From positions 14,975 to 78,974 of IMG/VR virus record IMGVR_UViG_3300012936_003649: a DNA stretch of 64,000 nucleotides, one strand, 5' to 3'. Below the pieces are notes generated by a model. The model had not been told where the DNA came from and made no database searches. It saw only the letters and a list, made by a program, of their open reading frames with translations. The position numbers and the translations under genes are program-made. Source of the stretch: a virus. Numbering within the stretch: the stretch's first letter is position 1; each line of letters opens with the position of its first letter. Below, piece after piece: positions 12,035 through 49,402 of the stretch.

Positions 12035-12370
12035 ATGGATCAACGTCTCAAAAAAGCATTAGAACATGCAGACTATGTCTCAACATTCAAAAATCAAAAA
12101 CGTATACTACAAGAAAAATACACGAAAGAATCTACAGTATATTATCAAGGCGGACAATTTACTGCAACTAGAGAATTTATTGCAAGTGTTCTAGCAATAA
12201 AATGTGATATTTTTGTAGACAATAATAATACTCCTATAAAAATTACAAACAAAGAAGCGTTTTACAACGAATTAGTCACAGCATACACAACTGCAAATGA
12301 AAATTACTATACAGAGTATCAAAAAATAATTGATAGCGAAAGAACTGTGCAAGGAATATTAAATGTCTAA
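12035..12370 (+). CDS. Hypothetical protein
   Basis: 111 aa ORF with promoter and RBS; overlaps the next gene. Confidence 0.6.
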   Translation: MDQRLKKALEHADYVSTFKNQKRILQEKYTKESTVYYQGGQFTATREFIASVLAIKCDIFVDNNNTPIKITNKEAFYNELVTAYTTANENYYTEYQKIIDSERTVQGILNV

Positions 12371-13151
12371 GGGCATACTTGTACACGCATTCAATAATGA
12401 AGAAATAGATTACGTCAAGCAAGCATGTATGGTTGCAGAACGTGTAAAAAAGTATCTTGATCTTCCTACAAGTGTTATAACTGATTGTAAAGTGCCAAAA
12501 AATGTTTTCGACCATGTAATTGAATTTGACACTCCGCAAAGATACACTAGAAAGTTGTATAATAACGGAAATCACGGAAAACATTTAACCTTTAAAAATA
12601 ATGCAAGAGTTTTAAGTTACGATTTATCACCGTATAAGCAAACACTAATGATTGATAGTGATATAATCATATGTGATGATGTTTATAAAAACTGTTTTGA
12701 ACAAGATAATCCTTTATTGATGTATAAAGATGCATATCATATAGGACAAAATTTAGATTATAGAGAATTTAATAAAATAAGCGATTCAAGTGTAGATTTT
12801 TATTGGGCAACTTGTGTATATTTTGTAAAATGTAAACAAAACAAAATATTTTTTGATTTGCTACAGCATATTGAAGAGCAATGGCGTCATTATAGAATGT
12901 TATATCAAATAGTACAGCGAACATACCGCAATGACTTTGCTTTTAGTATAGGTGCCCACATTATGAATAATCATTCTAAAGGCAACTTTGTCAATCCTAT
13001 GCCAGGAAAACTTTTTTACACTATAGACAAAGACATTACACACGAAATAAAACAAGATAAACTAACTTTTTTAATTGATAATAATCCAATTGCTACAAAA
13101 GGACTTACTGTACATGCTATGAACAAATATAGTTTAGAGGAATTACTATGA
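12363..13151 (+). CDS. GT-A fold glycosyltransferase-like protein
   Basis: YDLSPYKQTLMIDSD (DxD motif after a hydrophobic strand), RNDFAFS, late HAMNK. Confidence 0.6.
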   Translation: MSKGILVHAFNNEEIDYVKQACMVAERVKKYLDLPTSVITDCKVPKNVFDHVIEFDTPQRYTRKLYNNGNHGKHLTFKNNARVLSYDLSPYKQTLMIDSDIIICDDVYKNCFEQDNPLLMYKDAYHIGQNLDYREFNKISDSSVDFYWATCVYFVKCKQNKIFFDLLQHIEEQWRHYRMLYQIVQRTYRNDFAFSIGAHIMNNHSKGNFVNPMPGKLFYTIDKDITHEIKQDKLTFLIDNNPIATKGLTVHAMNKYSLEELL

Positions 13152-13954
13152 AACAAGGTGTATTAATATTTGCACAAAATAACCAAACAGATGATTATGT
13201 AAAACAAGCATACTTGTGTGCAATGAGTGGTATGAAAAACGGAAATATGCATTTTACACTAGTGACTGACAAAGAAGTTGAGGAAAAAATTGCATTTGTA
13301 TTTGATAAGGTTATTTTGTTAAAGCATGACCAAGCAAAAAACAGCGAATGGAAAATAGAAAATAGATGGAAAGCCTATAATCTTTCTCCATATGACGAAA
13401 CAATAGTTGTTGACAGTGATGTTTTATTTTTAGAAAAAATAAATTGGTCTAAATTTAAGGATCAAGAACTTTACTTTACACAAAATCCAATTACATATAG
13501 ACAAGAACCTATTAATGACACTTACTATAGAAAAGTTTTCTCACAAAATTACTTGATTAATATATATGCAGGATTATATTACTTCAAAAAAACAAAACGT
13601 GTAGCAAATTTTTTTGCATTATTGGAAACTGTCATAGAAAATTGGCAAGATTTTTATGAAATATTTTGTAAAAACCATAAACCAAAACATTGTAGTATTG
13701 ATGTTTGTGCCGCTATTGTATTAGAACTTATGGAATATGATAATTTTCAAGATGTTGACTTGATTGATTTTGTACACATGAAATTACACGCACAAAATTG
13801 GGTAGACACAAGTGAACATTGGCAACAGAAAGTTGATTGGTATTTTAATGATGGTTTAAAAATTGGTAATCACCAACAACACGGAGTATTTCATTACACT
13901 GAAAAAGACTTCTGTGACAAAATACTAGCAAGGTATGAAAAGTGTACTGGTTAA
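13148..13954 (+). CDS. GT-A fold glycosyltransferase-like protein (paralogue)
   Basis: YNLSPYDETIVVDSDVLF, FVHMK and FHY motifs; paralogous to 12363. Confidence 0.6.
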   Translation: MKQGVLIFAQNNQTDDYVKQAYLCAMSGMKNGNMHFTLVTDKEVEEKIAFVFDKVILLKHDQAKNSEWKIENRWKAYNLSPYDETIVVDSDVLFLEKINWSKFKDQELYFTQNPITYRQEPINDTYYRKVFSQNYLINIYAGLYYFKKTKRVANFFALLETVIENWQDFYEIFCKNHKPKHCSIDVCAAIVLELMEYDNFQDVDLIDFVHMKLHAQNWVDTSEHWQQKVDWYFNDGLKIGNHQQHGVFHYTEKDFCDKILARYEKCTG

Positions 13955-14469
13955 TATTTGATAAAGATTCTAGTAAAATTATAGGTTTACAAAACTACGC
14001 TCCAGATCATCAATATGCTTTGGAAGTCAACGAAGATTTGTATGTTGATTTTATTGAAAATCCTGATAAAAAAGAAAATTATGTTGTTAAATTTGATTTG
14101 GCAAAAAAGAAATATACATTATTAGAATATGAACAGCCAAAATTTAATTATGATATAAAAGACATAATTTATCATATTCCTAAAAAGGATAACGCAGATT
14201 GTATGATTACAAGAAACACTGAATGGCGTAATTGGAAATTATACGTCAATGTGAAAGAAAAACTTTTGTTAAATCCTAATCAACTATGCAAGTTTAGCGT
14301 AACAAAAGAAAATGATCCTCACTTGCTTATTAGAACATTTGATGCTACGGTAGAGCAAATAGCAAACGGACACATAGTTCAGTTCGAGTATGATGAAGAA
14401 GAAGGTGATGTAAGTATATACACACCAAAGATATTTAATAGTTACGGATATGTAGATGAAGCAATTTAA
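13942..14469 (+). CDS. Hypothetical protein
   Basis: 175 aa ORF overlapping both neighbours. Confidence 0.55.
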   Translation: MYWLIFDKDSSKIIGLQNYAPDHQYALEVNEDLYVDFIENPDKKENYVVKFDLAKKKYTLLEYEQPKFNYDIKDIIYHIPKKDNADCMITRNTEWRNWKLYVNVKEKLLLNPNQLCKFSVTKENDPHLLIRTFDATVEQIANGHIVQFEYDEEEGDVSIYTPKIFNSYGYVDEAI

Positions 14470-17400
14470 AGTTTTAGATTATGACATAATATATTTGTCG
14501 TATGATGAGCCAAATGCAGAAGAAAATTACACTAACTTATTAACAAAAGTTCCGTGGGCAAAACGTATTCATGGTGTAGAAGGATCTGATGCCGCACATA
14601 AGGCATGTGCAGAAATATCTGATACTAAAAGATTTATTACTATTGACGGTGACAACCAAATAGATGAACAATTCTTAAATCAAACAATTAACTTTCAAGA
14701 AGGAGTAGACCTTTCTAGGCATGTTGTAAGTTGGACTGCTGATAATATAATTAATGGATTACGGTATGGCAATGGCGGAATAAAATGTTGGGATAGAGAA
14801 ACAGTCCTAAAAATGAAAACACATGAAAATGCAGATCCTGATAACATTGCGGCAGGTATTGATTTTTGTTGGGACTTAGAATATATCCAAATTAACAGTT
14901 TGATGAGTACAGTTCACAATAATGCTACTCCACATCAAGCATGGCGTGCCGGCTTCCGTGAAGGTGTTAAAATGTGTTTAGTTGAAGGTATAAAACCTGC
15001 GAAAAAAGAACTTATAGGAAATCATTGGAAGAATTTAGAAAGACTATATGTTTGGTGTATGGCAGGAGCAGACGTACCTAACGGACTATGGGCAATATAC
15101 GGAGCCAGAGAAGGCTTACATAAAACAATGTGTACAGATTGGGATTATGTAAATGTACGTGATTTTGAATATCTTAATAATTTATGGAAAGAAAAAATAC
15201 AAACAGAAGATGACTTGTTAGACGCATGTAAAGATTATGGTGAACGTATTCTTGCAGAAATAGAATTACCTATTGCTGTAACGCCCTTAGACGCTCAACA
15301 AAGCGTTTTCTTTAAGAAAACATATCGCAACCCACCAAGACCTGAACATCCTTATATACGTACAAATACAACGCAATTTAACACCTTTTCTTCTAACTTT
15401 ATTCCTACTAAAAAAACAGAATATGATATAGTAATGATATCATATGACGAAGCAAATGCCGATGAAAATTTTAACAAATTAAAAACACGTTTTCCAAGAG
15501 CCCAACGTATACATGGAGTAAAAGGAATACATCAAGCACATATTGCGGCGGCAAATTTATGTTCAACTGAAATGTTTTGGATTGTAGATGGAGATGCTAT
15601 AATAGATGACAATTTTAATTTTGATTATGTCGCTGAAGATAACAGAGCAGTACATGTATGGCGTAGTAAAAATCCTATAAATGATTTAGTGTATGGATAT
15701 GGCGGAGTAAAATTATTTCCTACACAAATGACACGTGATATGGATACAAGCCGTCCTGATATGACTACAAGTATCAGTGACAGATTCAAAAAGATGGAAA
15801 AAATATCTTGCATCACAGGATTTAATACAAGTGAATTTAGTACTTGGCGTAGTGCATTTAGAGAATGTGCTAAATTAGCAAGTAAAGTTATTGACAGACA
15901 AAAGGAGGACGAAACAAATGAAAGACTCAAAACTTGGACAACCGTGGGACACGATAGACCATTTGGGGAATATGCTTTGGCAGGCGCTACCGCTGGTATG
16001 GAGTTTGGCCTTTCTAGGGGGTCTGATCTTCGGCTGATAAATGATTTTAATTGGTTATATGAACAGTTTACTGAAACTACAGATACAACAGAAGAATGGC
16101 AACATATGTATGGCGATAAAACAAACACGCCTGTTTCTGAACCAGTTGATATAGAACCAGTAGAAATACAAGCAGATACCGAATGGAAACAAACAGTACC
16201 TTTCAAAGAGGATGAACCACTTCCTCCTCGTGATAATTTTATTGTAGATTTACTAGATAGATTTGAAATACTTTATGGAGATAAGGTTACTAATCTTAGA
16301 CGATTTTATAATGACGGACACATGTTAGATATATTACGTATAATTGGTAATGAAGATTTACGTAAATTTGTAGAAGAAAGAAACTATCATAGTTTATTTA
16401 GATACCTAGAAGATAAAGGTATTGAAGATATTGAAGATATACGGAAAATGTATATTGAAAAAAATGTTCATAGTTTGTTTAGACTACTTGGTGAAGATCA
16501 TGACGAACTACGCAAAGTTGTTACTGAAGATAATGTCCATAGTTTATTTAGACTGGTTGGTGATGAACATGAAGATTTACGTAAAACAGTAGTTGAAGAA
16601 AATTTACATAGCCTGTTTAGATTGCTTGGAGACAAACATGAAGATCTAAGACAAGTTGTAGTACAAGAAAATATAGCACATCTATTTGATATGTTAGGTC
16701 CTGACTATGAAGATTTACGCAAAGCAATATTTGATAAAAATATCTACAGTCTGTTTAGAGTACTAGGACCAAATCATGATAACATGCGTTCAGCAATGTT
16801 AGATAAAAATTTACACGGATTGTTTAGGGTGTTAGGTAATGAATATGAAGATTTACGTAAAGCAACATTAGAAAAAAACTTCCATGCGTTATTTAGAGTA
16901 TTAGGTGATGAATACGAAGATTTACGTAAAGCAGTTACAGAAAAAAATGTTCATAGTCTATTTAGGCTTATAGATAATAGTGATACTACAGAAGATTTAA
17001 GGAAAGCATTAGTTGAATCTAATGAAATGAGTCTGTTTAGATTAATAGAAGACAAAGACACTTTAGTAGAAGATATTAAGAAAGCAGGACTATTTAAAAA
17101 TATTTGGAGTATAAAAAGATTAGAGCCTAGTGTCACTGACGAAGTTAATCTTACTATGGATAATAACAGGCATGCTTTATGGCGTGTGTTGGAAAAACAT
17201 ACAGGTAGTTTATATGTTAAACCATTAGAAATACTTGATAAGCAAAACATTAATTATGATAAAGATGTTATGAGTCGTGGACAATTAAAAAGTAAAAAAT
17301 GGTTAGTTGAAGAAGTTAAAAAAGTTTGTCCTGATTTAGGAACTGTATTTTTATGTGCAGGCTGGTATAGTAGTGTTGTGCCTATGTTGCAGGAAGCCAA

Positions 17401-17839
17401 AATAGATTTTGAAAAAATAAGAAGTTTTGATATCGATCCTGAGGCATGGAAAATAGCAGAAGTATTCAATTCAGATTTAGTTAGTGATGCATGGAAATTT
17501 AAAGCAACAACACAAGATATAATGGATATAAATTATATTGAACACAGTTATACAACTGAAAGGCTTGACGGCACAACTGCTCCTTTGACAGAAATGCCAC
17601 ACACTATTATCAACACAAGTTGTGAACATATTGATAATTTTTCTAAATGGTATGATTTATTACCAGAAGGCAGATTAATAATATTACAAAGCAACAACTA
17701 TTTTAGCATTGAAGAACATGTAAATTGTTCTAATAGTTTACAAGAGTTTAGTACAAGTGCACCTATGCAAAAAGTTTTATATGAAGGTGAACTTGACTTA
17801 GGTCAATACACGAGGTATATGAAAATTGGACGTAAGTAA
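14456..17839 (+). CDS. Multidomain protein: two GT-A-like domains, 23-aa helical repeat array, C-terminal SAM-dependent methyltransferase-like domain
   Basis: Duplicated domain YDI..[LI]SYDE.NA.EN...RIHGV.G...AH.A.A...[IV]DGD...YG.GG[IV]K...WR..FRE; repeats EDLRK...KN.HSLFR.LG; C-terminal VFLCAGWY...IRSFDIDP...IINTSCEH. Confidence 0.65.
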   Translation: MKQFKVLDYDIIYLSYDEPNAEENYTNLLTKVPWAKRIHGVEGSDAAHKACAEISDTKRFITIDGDNQIDEQFLNQTINFQEGVDLSRHVVSWTADNIINGLRYGNGGIKCWDRETVLKMKTHENADPDNIAAGIDFCWDLEYIQINSLMSTVHNNATPHQAWRAGFREGVKMCLVEGIKPAKKELIGNHWKNLERLYVWCMAGADVPNGLWAIYGAREGLHKTMCTDWDYVNVRDFEYLNNLWKEKIQTEDDLLDACKDYGERILAEIELPIAVTPLDAQQSVFFKKTYRNPPRPEHPYIRTNTTQFNTFSSNFIPTKKTEYDIVMISYDEANADENFNKLKTRFPRAQRIHGVKGIHQAHIAAANLCSTEMFWIVDGDAIIDDNFNFDYVAEDNRAVHVWRSKNPINDLVYGYGGVKLFPTQMTRDMDTSRPDMTTSISDRFKKMEKISCITGFNTSEFSTWRSAFRECAKLASKVIDRQKEDETNERLKTWTTVGHDRPFGEYALAGATAGMEFGLSRGSDLRLINDFNWLYEQFTETTDTTEEWQHMYGDKTNTPVSEPVDIEPVEIQADTEWKQTVPFKEDEPLPPRDNFIVDLLDRFEILYGDKVTNLRRFYNDGHMLDILRIIGNEDLRKFVEERNYHSLFRYLEDKGIEDIEDIRKMYIEKNVHSLFRLLGEDHDELRKVVTEDNVHSLFRLVGDEHEDLRKTVVEENLHSLFRLLGDKHEDLRQVVVQENIAHLFDMLGPDYEDLRKAIFDKNIYSLFRVLGPNHDNMRSAMLDKNLHGLFRVLGNEYEDLRKATLEKNFHALFRVLGDEYEDLRKAVTEKNVHSLFRLIDNSDTTEDLRKALVESNEMSLFRLIEDKDTLVEDIKKAGLFKNIWSIKRLEPSVTDEVNLTMDNNRHALWRVLEKHTGSLYVKPLEILDKQNINYDKDVMSRGQLKSKKWLVEEVKKVCPDLGTVFLCAGWYSSVVPMLQEAKIDFEKIRSFDIDPEAWKIAEVFNSDLVSDAWKFKATTQDIMDINYIEHSYTTERLDGTTAPLTEMPHTIINTSCEHIDNFSKWYDLLPEGRLIILQSNNYFSIEEHVNCSNSLQEFSTSAPMQKVLYEGELDLGQYTRYMKIGRK
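16352..17122 (+). repeat. About 11 in-frame tandem repeats of ~69 nt (23 aa, consensus EDLRKAV.EKNVHSLFRLLGDEH)
   Basis: Counted in the translation; recurrent GAAGATTTACG and CATAGT.T.TTTAG at the DNA level. Confidence 0.9.
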
Positions 17840-18050
17840 ATTAACACTTAGAGAATTACAAACTGAAAGTGCTAGAGCCTTAAGTACTATGGAAGCAACT
17901 AATAATAACATTTATAAGTTCAACAAGCAAGCACATCACAATAGCCAAAATTGGTATGTGGCTGTGATTGAGTGGTATGTAAATACATATGGAGGACTTC
18001 CAAGCCAAGTAGGCCCAGGGAAAGATGTAAAATTAGTATACGATGTATAG
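17826..18050 (+). CDS. Small hypothetical protein (74 aa)
   Basis: Fills the gap with overlaps to both neighbours; GAGG upstream; TTG start. Confidence 0.55.
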   Translation: MDVSKLTLRELQTESARALSTMEATNNNIYKFNKQAHHNSQNWYVAVIEWYVNTYGGLPSQVGPGKDVKLVYDV

Positions 18051-19125
18051 ATACGAAAATATTAAGGAAGTGCATTTAGAAGTTACACAAAGGTGCCAAG
18101 CGGCATGTCCTATGTGTGATCGTAATATGAACGGTGGTGCTGATAATCCTCATATTACAAATGCTGAACTAAGTTTAGAAGATGCAAAACAAATGTTCAA
18201 ACCGGAGTTTATTCAGCAGTTAAATGTTATGTATATGTGCGGCAACCTAGGAGATCCTATTGTTGCAAAAGATACATTAGAAATATTTCAATACTTTAGA
18301 GAACACAATGCTAATATGTGGTTAAGTATGAATACAAATGCAGGTGCAAAAGATATTTACTGGTGGGCAAAACTTGCAGAAGTAATAGGACGCAGAGGTG
18401 CTGTAATTTTTAGTGTAGACGGATTGCGTGACACTAATCATTTGTATAGGCAAAACGTTGTATGGGATAATGTAGAACGTAATATGCAAGCATTTATTGA
18501 TGCTGGCGGCAGAGCCCGTTGGGACTTTTTAATATTTCAACACAACGAACATCAAGTAGAAGAAGCAGAAGCACTTGCAAATCAATGGGGTTGTGAAAAA
18601 TTTATTAAGAAAAAATCAGGTAGATTCATTACAAGTGATATTAAACCAAAGTATGAACACCAAGCAGTAAATCGAAAAGGTGCAGAAACACAAAAATTGG
18701 CTCCGCCTAAAGAAGAAAAGAATAAGAATTTAGCATTACTAAAACAAAAAGAAATAGAAAAATCATACGGAAGTATGAAAGAATATTTAGACAAATGCAA
18801 CATAACTTGTAAGGTTGCTAAACAAGGAAGTATTTTTGTTACAGCCGAAGGATTGTTAATGCCTTGTTGTTGGACCGCTGGACGTATGTACAAATGGTGG
18901 CATGAAGATCCTAAAGTAGAACAAATATGGGATCATATAGATAGTGCTGGTGGAAAAAAAGGCATCAGTCTAATTGACAATGATCTTAAAACAGTAGTCA
19001 ATGGTAGGCTAATACATAGTATTTCATCAAGTTGGAACAAGTCTAGTATTGCAGATGGTAAACTTGGAGTTTGTGCTCAAAAGTGTGGAAGCGAGTTTGA
19101 TCCTTATGCAGAGCAGTTCAAGTAA
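18043..19125 (+). CDS. Radical SAM enzyme with C-terminal twitch/SPASM-like Cys domain
   Basis: CQAACPMC (CxxxCxxC), MCGNLGDP, MNTN, FSVDG; C-terminal C...GSIFVTAEGLLMPCC...CAQKC. Confidence 0.9.
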   Translation: MYRYENIKEVHLEVTQRCQAACPMCDRNMNGGADNPHITNAELSLEDAKQMFKPEFIQQLNVMYMCGNLGDPIVAKDTLEIFQYFREHNANMWLSMNTNAGAKDIYWWAKLAEVIGRRGAVIFSVDGLRDTNHLYRQNVVWDNVERNMQAFIDAGGRARWDFLIFQHNEHQVEEAEALANQWGCEKFIKKKSGRFITSDIKPKYEHQAVNRKGAETQKLAPPKEEKNKNLALLKQKEIEKSYGSMKEYLDKCNITCKVAKQGSIFVTAEGLLMPCCWTAGRMYKWWHEDPKVEQIWDHIDSAGGKKGISLIDNDLKTVVNGRLIHSISSSWNKSSIADGKLGVCAQKCGSEFDPYAEQFK

Positions 19126-20259: not shown

Positions 20260-20270
20260 AAATTTATCCA

Positions 20271-20350
20271 TATAAATAATTAAAACTATAGTTAATTGTA
20301 ACATATAACAGCCAGAAGTCAAGGAAATTGGTAAAATCCACGAATAAGTA
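20271..20350 (+). promoter_or_regulatory. Late-type boxes TATAAATA (20271-20278) and AATAAGTA (20343-20350)
   Basis: Upstream of the radical SAM array; the second box lies 5 nt before ATG 20356. Confidence 0.5.
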
Positions 20351-20355
20351 ATAGT

Positions 20356-41693: not shown

Positions 41694-41698
41694 CTAAT

Positions 41699-42882: not shown

Positions 42883-43123
42883 ACATTTACAAGAAGCAAA
42901 AACAAAAGCAGGTAGGCCTGATGCAGGTTATTGGTGGCATTTTAGACTTGCTATAAACGAATTCTTTTTCCTATTACTAGTTTGTATAGGAAGTTTAGTT
43001 CACGCTATTTTCCCTTGGGTACTTGACTTTAAATTATTAGAATGGCGTATTAATCGTCTTAAAGAACTCAAGCGAAAATTGCCTGACGATCCACAATTAC
43101 AGAAGGTACATTTTGATGACTAA
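42866..43123 (+). CDS. Small membrane-associated protein (DUF6356-like)
   Basis: HL......Y..HF..A...hydrophobic stretch...VHAIFP. Confidence 0.5.
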   Translation: MWYNPKHLQEAKTKAGRPDAGYWWHFRLAINEFFFLLLVCIGSLVHAIFPWVLDFKLLEWRINRLKELKRKLPDDPQLQKVHFDD

Positions 43124-43946
43124 CGTTTTAGATTTAATTGCATACAAAGATGGTGAATACAAAAGGTTGAGAGATATAGGACCAACTATACTCGACTTTG
43201 GATTTATACATTGCGATGCAACATATGATGTTATGCCTGTGTATAATGGCAAAGCATTTTGTTATGAAAGACATTTACAAAGATTTAAAAATAGTGCAGA
43301 AAGATATGGTTTAAGTTTACCTGATCCTGAATGGACAGATCCTTTAGAAATAACAAGACAACTTGCAAAACGCAATCCTATCCAAAATGCATTTGTTTGG
43401 TTTTTAGCATGGAGAGGGTATCCACCTAGTGGTAACCCAAGAGACTTAGAAAATTGTAAAACACATTTTGCTATGTATATAAAACCAAGTTACCCAATCG
43501 GTAAAAAGCCAATTATTAATATTGCATTGGATGAAGAAACTAACCGTGTTAATGATGACTACTACGGCCAAACTTATAAAAATATGGCGTGGATCGAACT
43601 AACAATGAGCCAGCGTAACAGACCAGAAGGAAGCGACACAACCGTATTAGTAGACGTTGATGGAAATATTACTGAAGGTCCTGGATTCAATGTAGGTATT
43701 GTAATTGATGGTAAAGTATACACTGCTGATAAAAATGTTCTCAAAGGTGTAACTATGAGTGTAGTGGAAGATATTGTAGACTTGACTAGGCGCCCTATTT
43801 CAAAAAAAGAATTCTTAGACGCAGATGAAGTTTTTATTACAAGTTCAAGCGGTGGAGTAACAGAAACGCAACGCTCAGGACCTGTAACAAAAATGCTTAT
43901 TGAAGAATACGAAAAGAAAAAAGAAGAATATGGAACCTTATTATAA
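43113..43946 (+). CDS. PLP-dependent class IV aminotransferase, (R)-amine transaminase-like
   Basis: DFGFIHCDATYDV...HLQRF..SA, catalytic YKNMAW, TEGPGFN, VLKGVT, DEVFITSSSGG. Confidence 0.85.
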   Translation: MMTNVLDLIAYKDGEYKRLRDIGPTILDFGFIHCDATYDVMPVYNGKAFCYERHLQRFKNSAERYGLSLPDPEWTDPLEITRQLAKRNPIQNAFVWFLAWRGYPPSGNPRDLENCKTHFAMYIKPSYPIGKKPIINIALDEETNRVNDDYYGQTYKNMAWIELTMSQRNRPEGSDTTVLVDVDGNITEGPGFNVGIVIDGKVYTADKNVLKGVTMSVVEDIVDLTRRPISKKEFLDADEVFITSSSGGVTETQRSGPVTKMLIEEYEKKKEEYGTLL

Positions 43947-44427
43947 ACTTGTTCCATATGCAATCACAGAGGATACAAAGCAAAAAATATTAAGTTTTGC
44001 TCACGCCCCTAATGCATTTGTTGATATTAGTTACAAGATAAGTTTTTTTAAATTACCTAGCACAATACAACATTTCAACACAACAGGATTAGATTGTGTA
44101 TGTCAAATGTTAAAAGTAAATGAGTCTGGTAGCACTGTACACAAGGACAAAAACAGACACAACGAATTTGATGGTACTTGGATACCTAGACAGACTGTTG
44201 TAAGTTTTCCTTTAACAGATAATTGTGGATCTACTCATTTCTTTGATGACAATAAAAATTTTGTTTGTGATATTGATTACGAAGGGCATGGAGCAATACT
44301 AAACACTGGCGAACATTATCATAATGTAAACTTTACAAAGACAAACAATGAAAGAATAGTATTTCAATTTTGTTTTGAAGAATCATTTGATAAAGTGTGC
44401 AAACTTTGGAATAATATAAAAATATGA
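43930..44427 (+). CDS. 2OG-Fe(II) oxygenase-like/cupin protein
   Basis: HKD...FPL...T.F...LNT..HYHNV......RIVFQ. Confidence 0.5.
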   Translation: MEPYYKLVPYAITEDTKQKILSFAHAPNAFVDISYKISFFKLPSTIQHFNTTGLDCVCQMLKVNESGSTVHKDKNRHNEFDGTWIPRQTVVSFPLTDNCGSTHFFDDNKNFVCDIDYEGHGAILNTGEHYHNVNFTKTNNERIVFQFCFEESFDKVCKLWNNIKI

Positions 44428-45008
44428 ATACTGAAAATTATATATACGAGTTAGATGATTTTATTGATTGTTTATATGTTTACAATAAAGCACAAAATTT
44501 ATTAAGTGAAGATTGGTTAGAATTACCTGATCCGTATGCTTTAGGACAATATACAGATAATGAGAATTACTATATAAAAGTAGACGGTGATGATTATCTA
44601 TCAAATATAAAGAAAAAATTTCCTAAATTAAAACCTTACATAAAAATTCTAAAATCAGAAAAAGGCGTATGGCCGGCTCATGTTGATAATTGGCGAGTTA
44701 CTGCAATTAACATACCTTTGTCAAATGTAGAAGGCTGTGATACGATTTTTTATAAAGACAACTATGTAAAAAAAGAATCAATGTTTAGTCCATTTGGTAA
44801 AACAAAAGGAACATGGAAGTCTAATAAATGGGTAACTTATATTGAAACAAAGGACGAGTTATTCAAACATCAACTTACCAAACCTACTATTATTAACACA
44901 AATCAACCCCATAGTATTGTAAAGCATACAGAAGGATATAGAATAATCGCTAGTTGGACATATGATGAACCTTTTGAACAAGCGATTAAAGATTTTTCAT
45001 GCCAGTAA
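44424..45008 (+). CDS. 2OG-Fe(II) oxygenase-like protein
   Basis: PAHVD..R..AINIP...T.F...INTNQPHSI......RIIAS. Confidence 0.55.
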   Translation: MNTENYIYELDDFIDCLYVYNKAQNLLSEDWLELPDPYALGQYTDNENYYIKVDGDDYLSNIKKKFPKLKPYIKILKSEKGVWPAHVDNWRVTAINIPLSNVEGCDTIFYKDNYVKKESMFSPFGKTKGTWKSNKWVTYIETKDELFKHQLTKPTIINTNQPHSIVKHTEGYRIIASWTYDEPFEQAIKDFSCQ

Positions 45009-45634
45009 ATATAACAGATAAAGATGAAGTATTTGATGACAATTTTTGGAATCAATTATACAAAAAAGAATTAGTGCCTTGGAGCAATGCACCTGCAAAT
45101 CTACTTAAAAATTTTGTAGAATATTTGCCTAAAGGTGCTAAGATATTAGACTTAGGTTGCGGAAGAGGACGCAATAGTTTTTTCTTAGAAAGATTAGGAT
45201 TTGAAGTTTTAGGTTTAGATATATCTGAAACAGCAATACAACAAGCAAAAGATAAAAACAGTAAATGTAAATTTAAAGTATTTGATCTTATGCACGAGGA
45301 ATGGCCTAAAGATTTTGATGCTGTTATTGATTTCGGCTTTTATCATTTTTTACCAAGTCAGTATAGAAAAGAATATGTAAGTAAATTAAATAATACATTA
45401 AATAATAAAGGAATATATTGTCAACAGTCTGGTAGAAATGATATCGAACATTCATATAATAGAATACCTGGTGAGTATGTACCACCAGAACTCAACAAAG
45501 AAGATATTGTGTTTAACAATTATACTGTTATACTTTGTGAAGAACTTACAATCCCTCCACATGACCATTGGGGAAAGTATCCTTGTTGGAATCTAATAGC
45601 GAGGAAAAATTTTGAAAACAGCAATAATTTTTAA
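44999..45634 (+). CDS. Class I SAM-dependent methyltransferase
   Basis: ILDLGCGRG, GLDISETAI, FDAVIDFGFYH. Confidence 0.9.
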   Translation: MPVNITDKDEVFDDNFWNQLYKKELVPWSNAPANLLKNFVEYLPKGAKILDLGCGRGRNSFFLERLGFEVLGLDISETAIQQAKDKNSKCKFKVFDLMHEEWPKDFDAVIDFGFYHFLPSQYRKEYVSKLNNTLNNKGIYCQQSGRNDIEHSYNRIPGEYVPPELNKEDIVFNNYTVILCEELTIPPHDHWGKYPCWNLIARKNFENSNNF

Positions 45635-47093
45635 TGATAGCGGCTGGCAAATAACCAGACGTACTATGGGTGCATACAAAGTTGCTCATATGATGAGGTC
45701 GTATGGATGGAATGTAGAAGTTGTAGATTGGATTACTAAATGGAAAGATACAGAAATACTAGAATTTTTAGGTAATTGTAAAAAAATAGATCTAATAGGA
45801 TTTGGTAATCTTTGGTTAGAAGATAGTTTTGTAAAAGATAAAATTGCCTTAATTAAAAAAAATTATCCTACAGTTAAATTTATATTAGGAAGTCCTAAAC
45901 CATATCAACAAGACTTTGGTGCAGATGTAATGATTTTTGGTTATTCAGAACATGCTCTTAAACCTGTGCTTGATTGGATGTTTGATAACGGAAGAAAACC
46001 TAAAGGAAAATATCCTAGTTGGGCTCCTAATAGTTATCTAATAGATGCTAATCATTTGTATCCTGCTCTACAAATAGGCAGTTATGATGTAGAATATCAA
46101 GATAATGATTTTGTTTTGCCAACAGATGTTTTAACATTAGAAATGACTAGAGGTTGTAGATTTAGATGTAAGTATTGCAGTTACGCATTCCTTGGAGTAA
46201 AAGAAGATTATAGTAGATGTGAAGAAAGCATTTACCATGAAATGATGGACAATTACAATAAATGGGGAACTGTTAATTATGTTATTGCTGACGATACGTT
46301 TAATGATAGAGACATCAAGATAGAAAGACTAGCAAATGTCGTCAAGCGATTACCTTTCCAGCCTAACTTTAGTGCTTTTATTAGACTAGATTTAGTTTTA
46401 CTTCGTCCTAAGCAATTACAACTATTAATTGATGCTAGAGTATGGGCTCACTTTTATGGTATAGAAACATTACATCCAGAAGCCGCTAAAGCAATAGGCA
46501 AAGGTATGCACCCAAGCAAAATAAAAGATGGATTATTAAGTGTAAGAGAATCATTCAGAAATGCTTTAGGACTTTATAGAGGCACATGCGGCATGATAGC
46601 AGGATTACCTTTTGAGCCTATAGAAAGTTGGCACGAGAGTTTAGAATGGATGGATAAGAACTGGGAGTGTTATTTGTTTTGGGCTTTACATATTAGCACC
46701 GATAAAGATATACAAACACATAGTGACTTTAGTATTGATGCAAAAAAATATGGGTACAACCCAACAGAAGATGTAGAAATGTTAAGTTGGGCAGAACAAC
46801 AAGGTTTGTTAGACATACATTCTGAAAATACACATAAACTAGACAGGCATATAATGATATGGGAAGCAGACTGGGCAAACTTTAAAGATGCATCCGAGTT
46901 TGCAACTATGTACAATAAAAATTATTTTCCTAAAATAAAGGTTCCTAATTTTGAACTTTTAAATTATTGGAATTATAATAATTTTATAAATTTTACTGCA
47001 CAAGATGCTTATATAGATGCAAAGTTCAAAACAGCCGAAGATAATATGATTAAGGAATATATATTTAAGAAGTTGAAAAATGAAAAAAATTAA
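45612..47093 (+). CDS. Cobalamin-binding-type radical SAM enzyme
   Basis: RTMGAYKVAH.MR..G..VEVVD; TRGCRFRCKYC; ADDTFND; GIET; IAGLPFE. Confidence 0.85.
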   Translation: MKTAIIFNDSGWQITRRTMGAYKVAHMMRSYGWNVEVVDWITKWKDTEILEFLGNCKKIDLIGFGNLWLEDSFVKDKIALIKKNYPTVKFILGSPKPYQQDFGADVMIFGYSEHALKPVLDWMFDNGRKPKGKYPSWAPNSYLIDANHLYPALQIGSYDVEYQDNDFVLPTDVLTLEMTRGCRFRCKYCSYAFLGVKEDYSRCEESIYHEMMDNYNKWGTVNYVIADDTFNDRDIKIERLANVVKRLPFQPNFSAFIRLDLVLLRPKQLQLLIDARVWAHFYGIETLHPEAAKAIGKGMHPSKIKDGLLSVRESFRNALGLYRGTCGMIAGLPFEPIESWHESLEWMDKNWECYLFWALHISTDKDIQTHSDFSIDAKKYGYNPTEDVEMLSWAEQQGLLDIHSENTHKLDRHIMIWEADWANFKDASEFATMYNKNYFPKIKVPNFELLNYWNYNNFINFTAQDAYIDAKFKTAEDNMIKEYIFKKLKNEKN

Positions 47094-48114
47094 CGATGAT
47101 ATAAAATTAGATTTTTCTGACGTGCTAATAGAACCAATAGAAAGTTCTAAACCTCTCACACGTAAAAATGTTGATATAGAAATAGATTGGTTAGATACCA
47201 AAGCAACTCCTGTAATTGTTTCAAACATGCTTAGTACAGGAACTTATAAAATTGCAAATATACTTACACCATTGCGTATTTTTACTTTTTTACACAAAGA
47301 ATATACTGCTGAACAACATATAAAAGAATTACAAAAAATGTCTGACAGAAGATTTATTGCAATTACAAGCGGTGTACAATCATGGGATAAAGATAAAACA
47401 ATTGAAGTAGTAAGTAAGTTTCCTGACATAGGTATTATTAATGTTGATATTGCAAATGTATATGCTAACATGCAAGGAATGATTGATACAATTAAATTAT
47501 ATAGACAAAAATTTCCAAACATACATATAAGTGCTGGCAATGTAGCAACTCCAAATGTTGTATCTAAATTAGTTCAAGCAGGAGCAAACTTTATTAAGGT
47601 AGGAGTTGGTAGTGGTGCGGCTTGCAGAACACGCTCAGAAGTAGGAGTAGGTATACCTCAACTAAGTGCTATACTAGATTGTTATGAAACTGTTACTAGG
47701 AATGGTGCTCATATCATTTCAGATGGTGGCTGTGTAACTTCTGGAGATGTTTGTAAAGCAATAGGTGCAGGTGCTAAAATGGTTATGATAGCAGGGATGA
47801 TATCTAAAGCAGAAGAGTGTGATAATATTGTAGAAATTGACGGTAAAAAATATGTTAACTTTTATGGGCTAGGTAGCACAACTATGTATAACCGTACAAA
47901 TCCAACAGAACAAGAGTATAGACCTAACGAAGGTAGAGACTTGTTAATACCCGCAAAAGGGTCTGTTAAAAGCATTTTAAAGCAAATACAAGGGGGTTTA
48001 AGGAGTGTATGTACATATGTAGGTGCAGAGCATATAAACCAATTAAACAGCCGTACACGCTTTGTACGTGTCAATAATCAAATTAATAATAGTTTAGAAA
48101 AGTACGAAAAATGA
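47080..48114 (+). CDS. guaC: GMP reductase-like (IMPDH/GMPR family)
   Basis: KLDFSDVLI, AGNVAT, KVGVGSGAACRTR..GVGIPQLSAI, IISDGGC, FYG, GGLRSVCTYVGA; no CBS domain. Confidence 0.8.
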   Translation: MKKINDDIKLDFSDVLIEPIESSKPLTRKNVDIEIDWLDTKATPVIVSNMLSTGTYKIANILTPLRIFTFLHKEYTAEQHIKELQKMSDRRFIAITSGVQSWDKDKTIEVVSKFPDIGIINVDIANVYANMQGMIDTIKLYRQKFPNIHISAGNVATPNVVSKLVQAGANFIKVGVGSGAACRTRSEVGVGIPQLSAILDCYETVTRNGAHIISDGGCVTSGDVCKAIGAGAKMVMIAGMISKAEECDNIVEIDGKKYVNFYGLGSTTMYNRTNPTEQEYRPNEGRDLLIPAKGSVKSILKQIQGGLRSVCTYVGAEHINQLNSRTRFVRVNNQINNSLEKYEK

Positions 48115-48821
48115 TAAGTTTTGACAAAATATTAAATGAAGGAGTAACCATATCTAGTAGTGGTACAACCGGACCTTCAAAAGATATATTTCGTGATCCT
48201 GAAAATTTAAAAGAAGCAAATAAGATTGCAGTAGATGCACAAAATATATCAAGCACAAGTAAAATACTTACTGTGACTAGAATGACTCACGCTGGAGGAT
48301 TACTGGCTCAAAGTTTGCCAGCGTATAGTGTTGGCGCTGAAGTAACTATTTTAAAAAAATTTAATCCATTTACATTTCTCAAAAATTTTCAACACTACAC
48401 TCATACTTTTCTAGCACCTGCTCAGATGACTGCACTAATGAATACAAAAGGATTTAAAGATTGTGATCTTACAGGTAAAAGAATTTTAGGGGGAAGTGAT
48501 CCTGTAACTTGGGATATGATCGAAGCATTTGTAAACAAAGGTGCTATTGTGCAACCCAATTGGGGAATGAGCGAGATAGGACCAATTACTATTAATATTG
48601 AATTTGCTACAATGGAGCAAGTTGAATATGTAAAACAAAGATGTCCTGATGGCTACACAATCATGGGTAATAAATATTATTGTGATTGGAAAATAGTTGA
48701 CCATGAATTATATGTCAAAGGTCCAACATGCGTATATGATGATTGGTTTGCTACAGGTGATATAGTAGCACTAGATATGGGTAGGAGAATGTACTACCTA
48801 GGAAGAAAGGAAAATATATGA
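48111..48821 (+). CDS. Minimal AMP-binding (ANL superfamily) adenylation enzyme
   Basis: SSGTTGPSK P-loop, HAGG, WGMSE, WFATGD, YLGR; only 236 aa. Confidence 0.75.
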   Translation: MISFDKILNEGVTISSSGTTGPSKDIFRDPENLKEANKIAVDAQNISSTSKILTVTRMTHAGGLLAQSLPAYSVGAEVTILKKFNPFTFLKNFQHYTHTFLAPAQMTALMNTKGFKDCDLTGKRILGGSDPVTWDMIEAFVNKGAIVQPNWGMSEIGPITINIEFATMEQVEYVKQRCPDGYTIMGNKYYCDWKIVDHELYVKGPTCVYDDWFATGDIVALDMGRRMYYLGRKENI

Positions 48822-49402
48822 GGCCTTATTTTCAATATGTAGAAGGTATAAATTTTACCCAAGAAACTCGAAAAAAACTTGCAGAAAATATTTTATCGAA
48901 TGCAGAAGATTATATTAGAAGTGCTAATTATAGGCACAACAAATATGGAAAATATGATTGGAATTGGTTCTGTCCTAGAGAACTTATGCCTACTGAACTT
49001 ATGGACGAAGTAGGAAAACGTTTCAAAATTCCTGTCGCATATGAAATACTTGGGCAAACTCCTTATACTGATGGAAAGATACATATTGATAGAAAAGTAG
49101 AAGGACTACCACCTAGAGTCACATTGATAAACTTTCCAGTATATCCATTTGATATGAATGTATATGGACCGACAAATTTTTTTAAATTAACAGACGGTAG
49201 TTACTCTGATTACGATAATGCTACATTTGAACTACAATGTAGCGTAGATTACAGTCACAACCTTCCAGTAATTTTTAATTTGCAAGAATATCATAATGCT
49301 GTAAACGATACAAATGATTATAGATTTAATGCACAATTCACAACAGATTTAGAAGCCGAAGAAATATTCGAACTTTACGATTCCGGAAAATTATTCGATT
49401 AA
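48818..49402 (+). CDS. 2OG-Fe(II) oxygenase-like protein
   Basis: IHID...R..LINFP...T.F...FNLQEYHNAVN....RFNAQ. Confidence 0.55.
   Translation: MRPYFQYVEGINFTQETRKKLAENILSNAEDYIRSANYRHNKYGKYDWNWFCPRELMPTELMDEVGKRFKIPVAYEILGQTPYTDGKIHIDRKVEGLPPRVTLINFPVYPFDMNVYGPTNFFKLTDGSYSDYDNATFELQCSVDYSHNLPVIFNLQEYHNAVNDTNDYRFNAQFTTDLEAEEIFELYDSGKLFD

What the first reader, a model, noticed from the sequence alone, without database searches (positions are those of the whole stretch)
12035..49402. Phage-encoded ~37 kb radical-SAM and glycan-tailoring island between tail-fibre genes
Seen: about 39 mostly overlapping genes, including 14 CxxxCxxC radical SAM enzymes, at least 4 GT-A-like domains, 2 or more methyltransferases, ~5 2OG-Fe(II) oxygenase-like, 3 nitroreductase-fold and 3 SGNH-like proteins, a GNAT, a PLP transaminase, an adenylation enzyme and a GMP reductase. 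Tail-fibre genes flank both ends and late-type boxes occur inside. Known: these are the tailoring classes of natural-product and complex-glycan pathways; twitch enzymes such as BtrN oxidise sugar-like substrates; some phages and giant viruses glycosylate their virions. Inference: one assembly line that builds and heavily modifies a glycan or other adduct on virion proteins, or on the host surface, for example to alter receptor binding or resist proteases and defences. I know of no characterised phage pathway of this size.
Basis: partly seen in the sequence, partly recalled or inferred. Interest (0 to 1): 0.95.

Follow-up and report, generated by a model that had tools for sequence, protein, structure and literature searches.

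The report
Hypervariable radical-SAM sugar-tailoring island in jumbo phage
A marine giant phage carries, next to its tail-fibre genes, a 37-kb swap-in/swap-out block of sugar-transferring, methylating and 14 radical-SAM enzymes. It most likely builds and chemically diversifies a sugar coat; no such enzyme family or pathway has been characterised.

Summary
The core observation holds. There are 39 ORFs at 12035-49402, and 14 carry CxxxCxxC and pass Pfam Radical_SAM. Fibre-like genes lie on both sides.

Nine of the radical SAM (rSAM) genes are diverged paralogues of the uncharacterised NCBIfam family NF033640 (N-terminal twitch rSAM).

The contig is a 79-kb piece of a ~360-400-kb marine myophage and is not chimeric. 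Both island borders and four rSAM anchor genes are syntenic in related IMG/VR contigs. The content between them turns over: 49 N-twitch subfamilies in 52 loci.

Support for sugar chemistry:
- Three domains model as, or align with, GT-A glycosyltransferases, two of them fused to methyltransferase-like domains, as in chlorovirus A064R.
- Relatives' islands hold RmlC-like, SDR epimerase/dehydratase and DegT-like genes.
- Bacterial NF033640 genes sit beside GT2, AsnB, UDP-sugar dehydrogenase and GT-C genes.
- Some Bdellovibrionota genomes hold up to 16-17 copies.

The acceptor (virion proteins, host envelope or something else) is not resolved. The late-promoter, GNAT, SGNH and "about five 2OG oxygenases" claims were not confirmed.

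Earlier notes of this scan cover only this same genome. rSAM-rich marine phages and rSAM cassettes have been noted in the literature, without a function.

The parts
2..4042 (+). C-terminal part of a giant (~4,950 aa) virion structural protein whose ORF starts at contig base 4155
   Evidence: Open at the window's 5' end. ORF 4155..14972 of L063 is open at its 3' end. PHROG virion-structural hits. Homologue upstream of the fibres in G002.
4675..10030 (+). Three paralogous tail-fibre-like genes (4675-6699, 6699-8516, 8549-10030): shared N-termini, different C-termini
   Evidence: 32-35% identity over the first ~300 aa. PHROG tail-fibre and tail-collar hits. Same order in G002.
10062..11983 (+). 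Paralogue pair of unknown function (10062-10970, 11024-11983) between the fibres and the island
   Evidence: 46% identical. No PHROG hit. Conserved in position in G002.
12035..14469 (+). Island start: a 111-aa ORF, paralogues 12363-13151 and 13148-13954 (possibly GT-A-like) and a 175-aa ORF
   Evidence: No Pfam family; only a weak Mannosyl_trans3 hit (E 0.04). Homologues hold the same position in G002, G004 and G005. A TTGACT-17-TATAAT match lies at 11987-12015, just upstream.
14456..17839 (+). Fusion protein: GT-A domain A, GT-A domain B, about 11 helical 23-aa repeats, methyltransferase-like domain C
   Evidence: Model of domain A: pLDDT 87.5, GT-A fold, VIA Z 8-10; Foldseek lists SunS, PBCV-1 A64R and other GT-A enzymes. 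D64 is invariant and D66 nearly so. 69-nt tandem repeats. The domains are separate ORFs in relatives. Domain C resembles Methyltransf_31 clusters.
18043..19125 (+). Anchor rSAM 1, with a C-terminal Cys-rich (SPASM/twitch-like) region
   Evidence: PF04055 31 bits. 11 Cys. Orthologues at 65% median identity in 39 loci.
19126..20409 (-). Alginate-lyase-like protein with a hydrophobic N-terminus; a cassette specific to this window
   Evidence: PF05426 31.5 bits. Hydrophobic segment at residue 25. No homologue in 52 related loci.
20356..21762 (+). Anchor rSAM 2: N-terminal-twitch rSAM (NF033640, 422 bits)
   Evidence: Orthologues at 72% median identity in 51 loci.
21755..25369 (+). Three accessory N-twitch rSAM cassettes (21755-22951, 22938-24098, 24059-25369)
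   Evidence: Each belongs to a small subfamily found in 5-11 of the 52 loci.
25350..26463 (+). Split rSAM: a 250-aa core (25350-26102) plus a 124-aa Cys-rich twitch-like protein (26089-26463); paralogue of anchor 4
   Evidence: BLAST to 39747-40877: core 5e-17, small ORF to its residues 307-369. Matching Cys spacing. The pair recurs in phage and bacterial loci.
26453..27070 (+). Nitroreductase-fold protein (paralogue at 31898-32599)
   Evidence: PF00881 E 3.6e-4, below the cut-off. BLAST 3e-24 to 31898-32599.
27060..28334 (+). Accessory N-twitch rSAM (NF033640, 364 bits)
28292..29728 (+). Two-domain protein: GT-A fold followed by a class-I methyltransferase fold
   Evidence: Model pLDDT 81.6. 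Residues 15-234 against PBCV-1 A64R: Z 10.7. Residues 236-455 against CheR and 6ulo: Z 11-12.3. Fused to an Asp/Arg-hydroxylase domain in Bdellovibrionales.
29713..30429 (+). 2OG/Fe(II) oxygenase of the Asp/Asn beta-hydroxylase family
   Evidence: PF05118 41 bits.
30426..31928 (+). B12-binding-domain rSAM (class-B-like)
   Evidence: PF04055 67.6 bits. B12-binding 30.2 bits, cut-off 32.1. Weak PhpK-family and RiPP C-methyltransferase hits.
32592..33758 (+). Anchor rSAM 3: N-twitch rSAM (NF033640, 405 bits), the most widely conserved gene
   Evidence: 50 of 52 loci. 1366 database proteins at E<=1e-10.
33733..34452 (+). DUF6071 protein
   Evidence: PF19547 44 bits.
34445..37924 (+). Three accessory N-twitch rSAM cassettes (34445-35623, 35598-36824, 36821-37924)
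37912..39716 (+). Paralogue pair of unknown function (37912-38793, 38790-39716)
   Evidence: 26% identity, E 2e-18. No family.
39747..40877 (+). Anchor rSAM 4, with a C-terminal twitch-like Cys motif
   Evidence: PF04055 59 bits. Orthologues at 82% median identity in 44 loci. 62-67% identical copies in contigs binned as Bdellovibrionales.
40855..41643 (-). Nitroreductase-family protein
   Evidence: PF00881 24.7 bits, over the cut-off.
41699..49402 (+). 3' block: 2OG oxygenase, unknown ORFs, an 85-aa protein with one membrane segment, class-IV aminotransferase, class-I methyltransferase, B12-like rSAM, GMP-reductase-like protein, AMP-binding fragment, unknown ORF
   Evidence: Almost no counterparts in related loci, so this block is variable cargo.
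49399..51384 (-). Fibre-like protein with an Mtd N-terminal domain; the downstream border
   Evidence: PF18454 42 bits. Partial homologue at the same border in G002.

Best explanation
The island is the sugar-building and sugar-editing part of the phage's host-recognition region.

Proposed mechanism:
1. Soluble GT-A glycosyltransferase/methyltransferase multidomain enzymes (14456-17839, 28292-29728) assemble a methylated sugar adduct in the cytoplasm of the infected cell.
2. Twitch-type rSAM enzymes abstract hydrogen from sugar carbons and rework the adduct or its nucleotide-sugar precursors. Possible reactions are oxidation, epimerisation, decarboxylation, dehydration and C-methylation. The set comprises four conserved anchors, exchangeable N-twitch cassettes and two B12-type enzymes.
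3. 2OG oxygenases, an aminotransferase and a methyltransferase add further changes. Nitroreductase-fold flavoproteins may supply electrons.
4. The most likely acceptor is the virion surface (fibre or baseplate proteins), by analogy with chlorovirus capsid glycans.
5. Cassette turnover gives each phage its own decoration.

Shown: the enzyme families and folds, the conserved synteny, the cassette turnover, and the sugar genes in relatives' islands and beside bacterial homologues.

Inferred: sugars as the rSAM substrate, the reaction types, and the acceptor.
For: 1. GT-A folds. 14456 domain A: pLDDT 87.5, VIA Z 8-10, and all top Foldseek hits are GT-A enzymes, including PBCV-1 A64R and SunS. D64 is invariant and D66 nearly so in the DxD motif. 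Its G001 homologue gives a weak Pfam GT2 hit (19.8 bits). The N-terminal half of 28292 matches A64R at Z 10.7, and its C-terminal half has a methyltransferase fold at Z 11-12.
2. The GT-GT-methyltransferase and GT-methyltransferase fusions parallel chlorovirus A064R, a soluble enzyme that builds methylated capsid glycans (PMC9614988).
3. The homologous islands of relatives contain nucleotide-sugar genes. G004 has three SDR epimerase/dehydratases at 40.6-43.2 kb and an RmlC-like gene at 46.7 kb (111.8 bits). G002 and G003 have an epimerase and a DegT-like gene. All lie between GT-like and N-twitch genes.
4. Bacterial NF033640 genes lie in glycan contexts in four lineages:
   - a Methylomagnum plasmid, with GT2, GT4, GT39, AsnB, UbiA and an ABC transporter;
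   - a Bdellovibrionales chromosome, where seven tandem copies sit beside AsnB, GT2, a UDP-sugar dehydrogenase and PMT_2;
   - Pseudobdellovibrionaceae: in L077 two GT2 genes lie directly upstream, and homologous ORFs recur in 11-12 loci;
   - Synechocystis, with GT2 next to a sulfotransferase-rSAM-aminotransferase fusion.
5. The N-twitch profile hits enzymes that act on sugars or nucleotides, namely BlsE, viperin and MoaA. Its N-terminal domain aligns with the twitch domain of BtrN.
6. All island proteins are soluble apart from two small or leader-like hydrophobic segments. The island is co-linear with the fibre genes, and its borders are conserved in G002, G004 and G005.
Against: - The window's own island has no recognisable nucleotide-sugar biosynthesis gene.
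- The GT-A fold is shared with nucleotidyltransferases (MobA and IspD at similar Z), and no sequence model passes a GT cut-off in the window.
- The best solved-structure match of the N-twitch profile is the peptide-modifying enzyme SkfB, and the second is a lipid synthase.
- One bacterial context, in Paenibacillus, is ketosynthase/SDR rather than glycan.
- No acceptor has been identified. The Ser/Thr-(GGGGSS)n tail of the gp6-like baseplate protein is absent from relatives that carry the island.
- No expression data could be obtained.
- Some 'bacterial' loci come from metagenome bins and could be viral contigs.
Confidence: 0.4

Rival explanations
1. The chemistry is the same, but the target is the host envelope. 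The island remodels host lipopolysaccharide, capsule or surface glycoproteins during infection, for example to block superinfection by competing phages. The host's own lipid carrier and export machinery would be used.
For: Bacterial homologues sit in clusters for exported glycans, with GT-C/PMT_2, ABC-transporter and polyprenyl genes. Pelagimyophage work reads the glycosyltransferases of the fibre-region island this way (PMC7029224). The window carries a secreted-looking alginate-lyase-like gene at 19126-20409(-). A sigma70-like promoter match lies in front of the island.
Against: The island has no flippase, polymerase, ligase, GT-C or any multi-span membrane protein. It is embedded in the virion structural module. 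It is very costly for an exclusion function in a lytic jumbo phage.
Confidence: 0.25
2. The rSAM enzymes modify proteins or peptides directly, in the manner of RiPP maturases. They would install cross-links, epimerised residues or methyl groups on tail fibres or on an unrecognised precursor, and the GT and methyltransferase enzymes would add further decoration.
For: Most characterised SPASM/twitch enzymes that occur in arrays are peptide maturases. SkfB is the best solved-structure match (4e-13). Asp/Asn beta-hydroxylase-family oxygenases and nitroreductase-fold proteins are common in RiPP clusters. The island adjoins the fibre genes. Iyer et al. proposed that fibre and collagen-like proteins are hydroxylase substrates in phage clusters (PMC2938197).
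Against: No precursor-like small ORF is conserved. The 124-aa Cys-rich ORF is a split twitch domain. No leader-binding (RRE), peptidase or exporter domain was found. This reading does not explain the nucleotide-sugar genes in relatives' islands or the GT2 neighbours in bacteria.
Confidence: 0.12
3. The island makes a diffusible small molecule, such as an aminoglycoside-like, nucleoside-like or lipid-like compound, that acts on the host or on competitors.
For: The mix of GT, methyltransferase, twitch rSAM (BtrN-like), B12-rSAM, aminotransferase and an adenylating fragment resembles aminoglycoside and nucleoside antibiotic clusters. One bacterial homologue lies in a ketosynthase cluster. A GMP-reductase-like gene is present.
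Against: There is no scaffold-forming enzyme (cyclase, NRPS, PKS), no exporter and no resistance gene. Cassette turnover on this scale is unusual for a defined metabolite. The position is in the structural module.
Confidence: 0.08
4. The island hypermodifies phage DNA or nucleotides, for example by glycosylating and then editing bases, to escape host nucleases.
For: Large myophages are known to glycosylate or otherwise hypermodify their DNA. Known thymidine hypermodification pathways use rSAM and PLP enzymes (PMC5889632 and PMC8989533, listed). MoaA, viperin and BlsE, which resemble the N-twitch profile, act on nucleotides or nucleosides. A QueE-like rSAM lies nearby at 59721-60647(-).
Against: The island has no base hydroxymethylase, kinase, DNA transglycosylase or other hallmark of such pathways. 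It lies with the fibre genes rather than the nucleotide-metabolism genes. The bacterial contexts are glycan clusters.
Confidence: 0.06

Closest known systems
Chlorovirus PBCV-1 A064R (with A061L and A111/114R): virus-encoded cytoplasmic glycosylation of the capsid protein
   Same: Soluble, virus-encoded multidomain enzymes that combine GT-A glycosyltransferase domains with a class-I methyltransferase domain. A64R domain 1 is among the top structural matches of both modelled proteins.
   Different: There is no detectable sequence similarity. The chlorovirus pathway has no rSAM enzymes, 2OG oxygenases or cassette turnover. The acceptor here is unknown. 14456-17839 also carries an ~11 x 23-aa repeat spacer.
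NCBIfam NF033640, 'twitch domain-containing radical SAM protein' (uncharacterised)
   Same: Seven of the nine paralogues score above the curated cut-off. All have four invariant N-terminal Cys plus CxxxCxxC.
   Different: Two paralogues (21755-22951, 36821-37924) fall below the cut-off (156 and 125 bits against 170). No member has a known substrate. Arrays of 9 or more in a virus have not been described.
BtrN and BlsE: twitch rSAM enzymes acting on sugar-like substrates
   Same: Both have an rSAM core plus one auxiliary 4Fe-4S twitch domain. The N-terminal domain aligns with BtrN's twitch domain (E 8e-5), and the core aligns with BlsE (1.5e-7).
   Different: The twitch domain is at the N-terminus rather than the C-terminus (a permuted order). 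Similarity is only at superfamily level. SkfB, a peptide enzyme, scores higher.
Host-recognition cluster of pelagimyophages and cyanomyophages (Zaragoza-Solas 2020) and the rSAM-rich T4-like environmental genome of Nishimura 2017
   Same: A hypervariable island in the structural region holding tail fibres, glycosyltransferases and rSAM cassettes (PMC7029224). A marine T4-like genome with 12 rSAM genes has been noted (PMC5332604).
   Different: This phage belongs to a jumbo lineage. Its gp6-like protein is nearest to those of SCTP-2, Atu_ph07 and PA5oct at ~36% identity, and a complete relative has 399,796 bp. The downstream border is not a neck gene. The earlier papers gave no enzyme family, anchors or function.
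Mycobacteriophage virion O-glycosylation (Freeman 2023, seen here only as a reference cited in PMC12801897)
   Same: Phage-encoded glycosyltransferases that decorate virion proteins.
   Different: From my own recollection of the paper, which I did not read here, that system uses only a few glycosyltransferases and no radical chemistry. The Ser/Thr-rich tail seen here on the gp6-like protein is not conserved in relatives.

Membership tests
Radical SAM superfamily | CxxxCxxC motif and a Pfam PF04055 score above the gathering cut-off | tested here: met
   14 of 14 proteins.
NF033640 N_Twi_rSAM | Whole-protein score at or above the curated cut-off of 170 bits | tested here: met
   Seven of nine score 223-422 bits. 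21755-22951 (156) and 36821-37924 (125) fall below but align over the full length.
NF033640 N_Twi_rSAM | Auxiliary-cluster (twitch) domain N-terminal to the rSAM core | tested here: met
   Invariant C7, C25, C75 and C78 precede C122/C126/C129. Pfam SPASM hits at residues ~4-90. The domain aligns with the BtrN twitch domain.
Full SPASM domain (two auxiliary clusters) | Seven conserved Cys in the auxiliary domain | tested here: not met
   Only four Cys are invariant in the N-terminal domain of the nine paralogues. This fits a twitch domain, not SPASM.
GT-A glycosyltransferases | GT-A (nucleotide-diphospho-sugar transferase) fold | tested here: met
   14456 domain A: Z 8-10 over ~135-140 residues. 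28292 N-terminal half: Z 10.7 over 167 of 206 residues of A64R.
GT-A glycosyltransferases | DxD metal/nucleotide-sugar motif after the fourth strand | tested here: met
   D64 is invariant and D66 nearly invariant in 17 homologues of domains A and B, at the end of strand 59-64. Not examined for 28292.
GT-A glycosyltransferases | Sequence-model membership in a GT family (for example Pfam GT2) | tested here: inconclusive
   No hit in the window. The G001 homologue of domain A scores 19.8 bits against a cut-off of 23.3. MobA/IspD nucleotidyltransferases match the fold at similar Z.
Class-B (cobalamin) rSAM methyltransferases | B12-binding domain plus rSAM core above the model cut-offs | tested here: inconclusive
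   B12-binding scores 30.2 and 21.9 bits against a cut-off of 32.1. All NCBIfam subfamily hits are far below their cut-offs.
RiPP biosynthetic cluster | Precursor peptide gene, leader-recognition (RRE) domain, and a peptidase or exporter | tested here: inconclusive
   None was found by Pfam or NCBIfam. The candidate small ORF 26089-26463 is a split twitch domain. Short unannotated precursors cannot be excluded.
Phage DNA hypermodification pathway | Base hydroxymethylase, 5-hmdU kinase, aGPT-Pplase or DpdA-type transglycosylase | tested here: inconclusive
   No such family among the 39 island ORFs. The rest of the genome, ~78% of which is missing, was not searched.
A064R-like viral GT/GT/methyltransferase enzyme | Two transferase domains followed by a SAM methyltransferase domain in one soluble protein | tested here: inconclusive
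   The two GT-A domains are supported. The methyltransferase nature of domain C rests on motifs, a weak profile match (E 0.0046, probability 8%) and language-model neighbours with Methyltransf_31. 28292 shows GT-A plus methyltransferase by fold.
A064R-like viral GT/GT/methyltransferase enzyme | Glycan built on a virion protein | not testable with these tools
   Needs virions or heterologous expression.

The most novel reading that the evidence does not exclude
N-terminal-twitch rSAM enzymes are a large, uncharacterised class of radical sugar editors. Jumbo phages, and independently some Bdellovibrionota (mostly predatory bacteria, with up to 16-17 copies per genome), would use exchangeable arrays of them to write hypervariable, chemically unusual glycan patterns on their own attack surface (fibres or virion, or the cell surface). 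That would be a combinatorial radical glyco-code evolving in an arms race.
Probability: 0.3. Interest if true: 0.9.

Novelty: new variant of a known kind. Interest (0 to 1): 0.78.

Why it matters
Virus-encoded glycosylation is known from chloroviruses, mimiviruses and a few mycobacteriophages. None of those systems uses radical chemistry, and none shows cassette-like turnover.

Here one enzyme family without any known substrate is represented by 7,730 database clusters at 50% identity (E<=1e-30). It is concentrated in abundant marine phages and in Bdellovibrionota.

If these enzymes edit sugars, they would open a new area of carbohydrate radical enzymology. They would also explain a widespread, costly, fast-evolving part of jumbo-phage genomes that sits next to the host-range determinants. 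The four conserved anchors give concrete entry points for biochemistry.

Tried and rejected
Searches that found nothing or little:
- Megablast of the flanks and island against 50,697 phage records: no match.
- Protein search in isolates: only distant relatives at 25% identity or less, in KVP40-like vibriophages and Ralstonia RsoM2USA, with no informative annotation.
- The profile of the nine paralogues was too divergent for a genome-contig scan. A scan with the Methylomagnum protein found nothing. The CNLKCRM-motif alignment worked, but that motif biases the sample.
- A second plasmid search found nothing.
- Sequence searches of 14456, its domain profiles and four unknown ORFs against solved structures gave nothing useful.
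- Profile-profile tests linking the GT-A and methyltransferase domains of 14456 and 28292, or 13148 to either, were insignificant.

Ideas considered and set aside:
- The gp6-like Ser/Thr-(GGGGSS)n tail as the general acceptor. The tail is real, but relatives with the island lack it.
- Mtd_N fibres next to the bacterial arrays: none found, and the control search also found nothing, so this is uninformative.
- The T4 late-promoter argument: not enriched.
- A chimeric contig: composition is even and both borders are syntenic in relatives.

Full report
**What is there**

The window is bases 14975-78974 of a 78,974-bp IMG/VR viral contig that CheckV rates 22% complete. That implies a genome of about 360 kb. 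The gp6-like baseplate protein upstream is nearest (~36% identity) to those of the jumbo myophages Salicola SCTP-2, Agrobacterium Atu_ph07 and Pseudomonas PA5oct. One relative is a complete 399,796-bp record.

Between 12035 and 49402 lie 39 ORFs, 37 of them on the + strand and mostly overlapping. Fourteen have CxxxCxxC, and all fourteen pass the Pfam Radical_SAM cut-off. GC content is even at 0.29-0.38 and the skew follows gene orientation.

**The radical SAM (rSAM) set**

Nine genes are paralogues at 22-31% identity: 20356, 21755, 22938, 24059, 27060, 32592, 34445, 35598 and 36821.
- Their Pfam SPASM hits lie N-terminal to the rSAM core.
- Seven of the nine exceed the curated cut-off of NCBIfam NF033640, 'twitch domain-containing radical SAM protein'.
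- Four N-terminal Cys and the CxxxCxxC motif are invariant. This fits one auxiliary cluster, that is a twitch domain and not a full SPASM domain.
- A profile of the nine hits SkfB, the archaeal tetraether synthase, BlsE, viperin and MoaA. Its N-terminal domain aligns with the C-terminal twitch domain of BtrN.

The other five rSAM genes are:
- 18043, with a C-terminal Cys-rich region;
- 39747, with a C-terminal twitch-like motif;
- 25350, whose twitch-like part is the separate 124-aa ORF 26089;
- two with B12-binding-like domains, 30426 and 45612.

**Other genes**

Supported by family models:
- two Asp/Asn-beta-hydroxylase-family oxygenases;
- three nitroreductase-fold proteins;
- a DUF6071 protein;
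- a class-IV aminotransferase;
- a class-I methyltransferase;
- a GMP-reductase-like protein;
- an AMP-binding fragment;
- an alginate-lyase-like protein with a hydrophobic N-terminus, on the minus strand.

A GNAT, three SGNH proteins and about five 2OG oxygenases could not be confirmed. No island protein has multiple membrane segments.

**Glycosyltransferase evidence**

The 1127-aa protein 14456-17839 consists of two homologous domains (A and B), about eleven 23-aa repeats (69-nt tandem repeats) and a C-terminal domain C. In relatives these are separate ORFs.
- An AlphaFold model of domain A, built from 17 homologues, has pLDDT 87.5. It matches only GT-A-fold enzymes by Foldseek and reaches Z 8-10 by VIA-align. 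Matches include SunS, PBCV-1 A64R, STIV A197 and B4GALNT1, but also the MobA and IspD nucleotidyltransferases.
- D64 is invariant and D66 nearly so, forming a DxD motif after a strand.
- Domain C has class-I methyltransferase-like motifs and language-model neighbours that carry Methyltransf_31. This is a lead, not a demonstration.

The 478-aa protein 28292-29728 models (pLDDT 81.6) as two domains. The first has a GT-A fold (A64R, Z 10.7). The second has a class-I methyltransferase fold (CheR Z 11.0; 6ulo Z 12.3).

GT-GT-methyltransferase in one soluble viral protein is the architecture of chlorovirus A064R. That enzyme builds the methylated end of the capsid glycan (PMC9614988).

**Relatives**

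Using 32592 as bait returned 52 related IMG/VR loci at 45-81% identity.
- Four rSAM genes are conserved anchors: 32592 in 50 loci, 39747 in 41, 20356 in 40 and 18043 in 28 by the ≥40%-identity clusters, at 65-82% median identity. The GT-A domain-B ORF and the repeat/domain-C ORF are also conserved.
- Everything between the anchors varies. There are 274 N-twitch ORFs in 49 subfamilies at 40% identity. Only two subfamilies are near-universal.
- Five long relatives carry 8-19 Radical_SAM (PF04055) matches each.

In G002 the full order is conserved: giant protein, 4054 homologue, three fibres, the 10062/11024 pair, 12035, 12363, 13148, 13942, GT genes, rSAM arrays, Mtd_N fibre, then the 51759, 52942 and 54337 homologues. 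G004 and G005 keep the same borders. The island there spans about 50-55 kb.

The contig is therefore not chimeric, and the island is a lineage-wide, fast-turning-over feature next to the fibres.

**Sugar genes in relatives' islands**
- G004 holds three SDR epimerase/dehydratase genes at 40.6-43.2 kb and an RmlC-like gene at 46.7 kb (111.8 bits). These lie between GT-like and N-twitch genes.
- G002 and G003 hold an epimerase and a DegT-like gene inside their islands.
- The window's own island lacks such genes.

**Cellular counterparts**

The family profile finds 7,730 clusters at 50% identity with E<=1e-30. A motif-seeded scan of one genome per species returned 77 loci, mostly from Bdellovibrionota. 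At least five of them (L068, L069, L073, L086, L105) are evidently phage contigs of this lineage binned into MAGs.

True chromosomal loci exist:
- A 1.9-Mb Bdellovibrionales chromosome has 17 copies over the cut-off, in clusters. One cluster of seven tandem copies plus a 39747-like gene abuts AsnB, a GT2, a UDP-sugar dehydrogenase and a PMT_2 GT-C.
- In Pseudobdellovibrionaceae locus L077 two GT2 genes lie directly upstream, and homologous ORFs recur in 11-12 such loci.
- Synechocystis salina has a GT2 next to a sulfotransferase-N-twitch-aminotransferase fusion.
- A Methylomagnum plasmid places the gene among GT2, GT4, GT39, AsnB, UbiA, polyprenyl-synthase and ABC-transporter genes.
- A Paenibacillus locus is different, with an SDR plus two ketosynthases.

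In an even sample of 81 Bdellovibrionota genomes, 14 have the family, with 1-16 copies each. None of 14 model organisms has it. On a FastTree tree the phage and bacterial members are interleaved, with at least 13 changes forced. This indicates repeated exchange.

**Interpretation**

The weight of evidence favours sugar-directed chemistry. Soluble GT-A/methyltransferase enzymes would build an adduct, and twitch rSAM enzymes would edit the sugars, with oxygenases, an aminotransferase and methyltransferases adding more.

Which molecule receives the product is not shown.
- Virion proteins are favoured (0.40). All the enzymes are soluble, the island is co-linear with the fibre genes, and there is the chlorovirus parallel.
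- Host-envelope remodelling is the main rival (0.25). It is supported by the export-type contexts in bacteria and by the reading given for pelagimyophage islands (PMC7029224).
- Direct protein modification (0.12), a small molecule (0.08) and DNA hypermodification (0.06) are less likely, for the reasons listed under the rivals.

**Promoters**

TATAAATA occurs twice against 12.5 expected. However, three copies sit exactly on the starts of 20356, 41699 and 40855(-), which are among the few real intergenic gaps in the island. An 11-of-12 sigma70-like match lies at 11987-12015, in front of the first island gene. Timing of expression therefore remains open.

**Prior knowledge**

Nishimura et al. noted a 183-kb T4-like marine genome with 12 rSAM genes (PMC5332604). 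Zaragoza-Solas et al. described a hypervariable fibre-region island with glycosyltransferases and rSAM cassettes in pelagimyophages (PMC7029224). Neither identified the enzyme family, the anchors, the GT/methyltransferase fusions, the link to Bdellovibrionota or a function.

The earlier notes of this scan all concern this same genome.

**Verdict**

This is a real, lineage-wide feature. It is a new variant of virus-encoded glycan machinery, distinguished by arrays of an uncharacterised rSAM family. Interest is 0.78.

Noticed in passing
L063:4155-14972 continuing into window 2-4042: A single ORF of about 4,950 aa (a giant virion structural protein) precedes the fibre genes. Homologues stand in the same place in G002, G004 and G005.
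   Followed up: partly
L063:532-4155 (gp6-like baseplate protein), last ~70 residues: The C-terminal tail is a Ser/Thr run followed by (GGGGSS)n and GYGY. It is absent from the gp6 homologues of four relatives, so it is specific to this phage.
   Followed up: yes
window 59721-60647 (-): A fifteenth rSAM-type gene outside the island, QueE-like (phrog_2076, E 5.5e-54). It lies among exonuclease genes and a 2OG-oxygenase gene and is conserved in G001 and G005.
   Followed up: no
window 20345-20358, 41688-41701 (+) and 41641-41654 (-): TAA[GT]TA-N5-ATG sits exactly on the start codons of 20356, 41699 and 40855(-), at the island's few true intergenic gaps. This suggests leaderless or very short-leader transcripts. 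By my rough estimate about 0.2 such coincidences are expected by chance.
   Followed up: partly
L069, L105, L073, L086, L068 (genome contigs): Contigs deposited in MAGs labelled Gammaproteobacteria, Rickettsiales, Crocinitomicaceae and Neisseriaceae carry this phage lineage's island, with 57-87% identical anchor genes in the same order. They are probably mis-binned phage contigs.
   Followed up: partly
G006 (Bdellovibrionales chromosome, 1.9 Mb): 792-803 kb, 1068-1092 kb: 17 NF033640 genes sit in a 1.9-Mb genome, in tandem arrays. Across the phylum the family is patchy but strongly expanded (14 of 81 sampled genomes, 1-16 copies).
   Followed up: partly
L139:9125-13918 (Synechocystis salina): A 1597-aa fusion of a sulfotransferase, an N-twitch rSAM and a class-III aminotransferase lies next to a GT2. 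It is a natural fusion that hints at the substrate class of the family.
   Followed up: no
window 16432-16965: The 23-aa helical repeat (69-nt period, about 11 copies) lies between the GT-A and methyltransferase-like domains of 14456-17839. The repeat-bearing ORFs of relatives differ in length (253-357 aa).
   Followed up: partly
Protein-representative hits P0122-P0145: Many database relatives are ~800-aa tandem fusions of two N-twitch rSAM units, and some are longer (up to 1,466 aa, one with TPR repeats).
   Followed up: no
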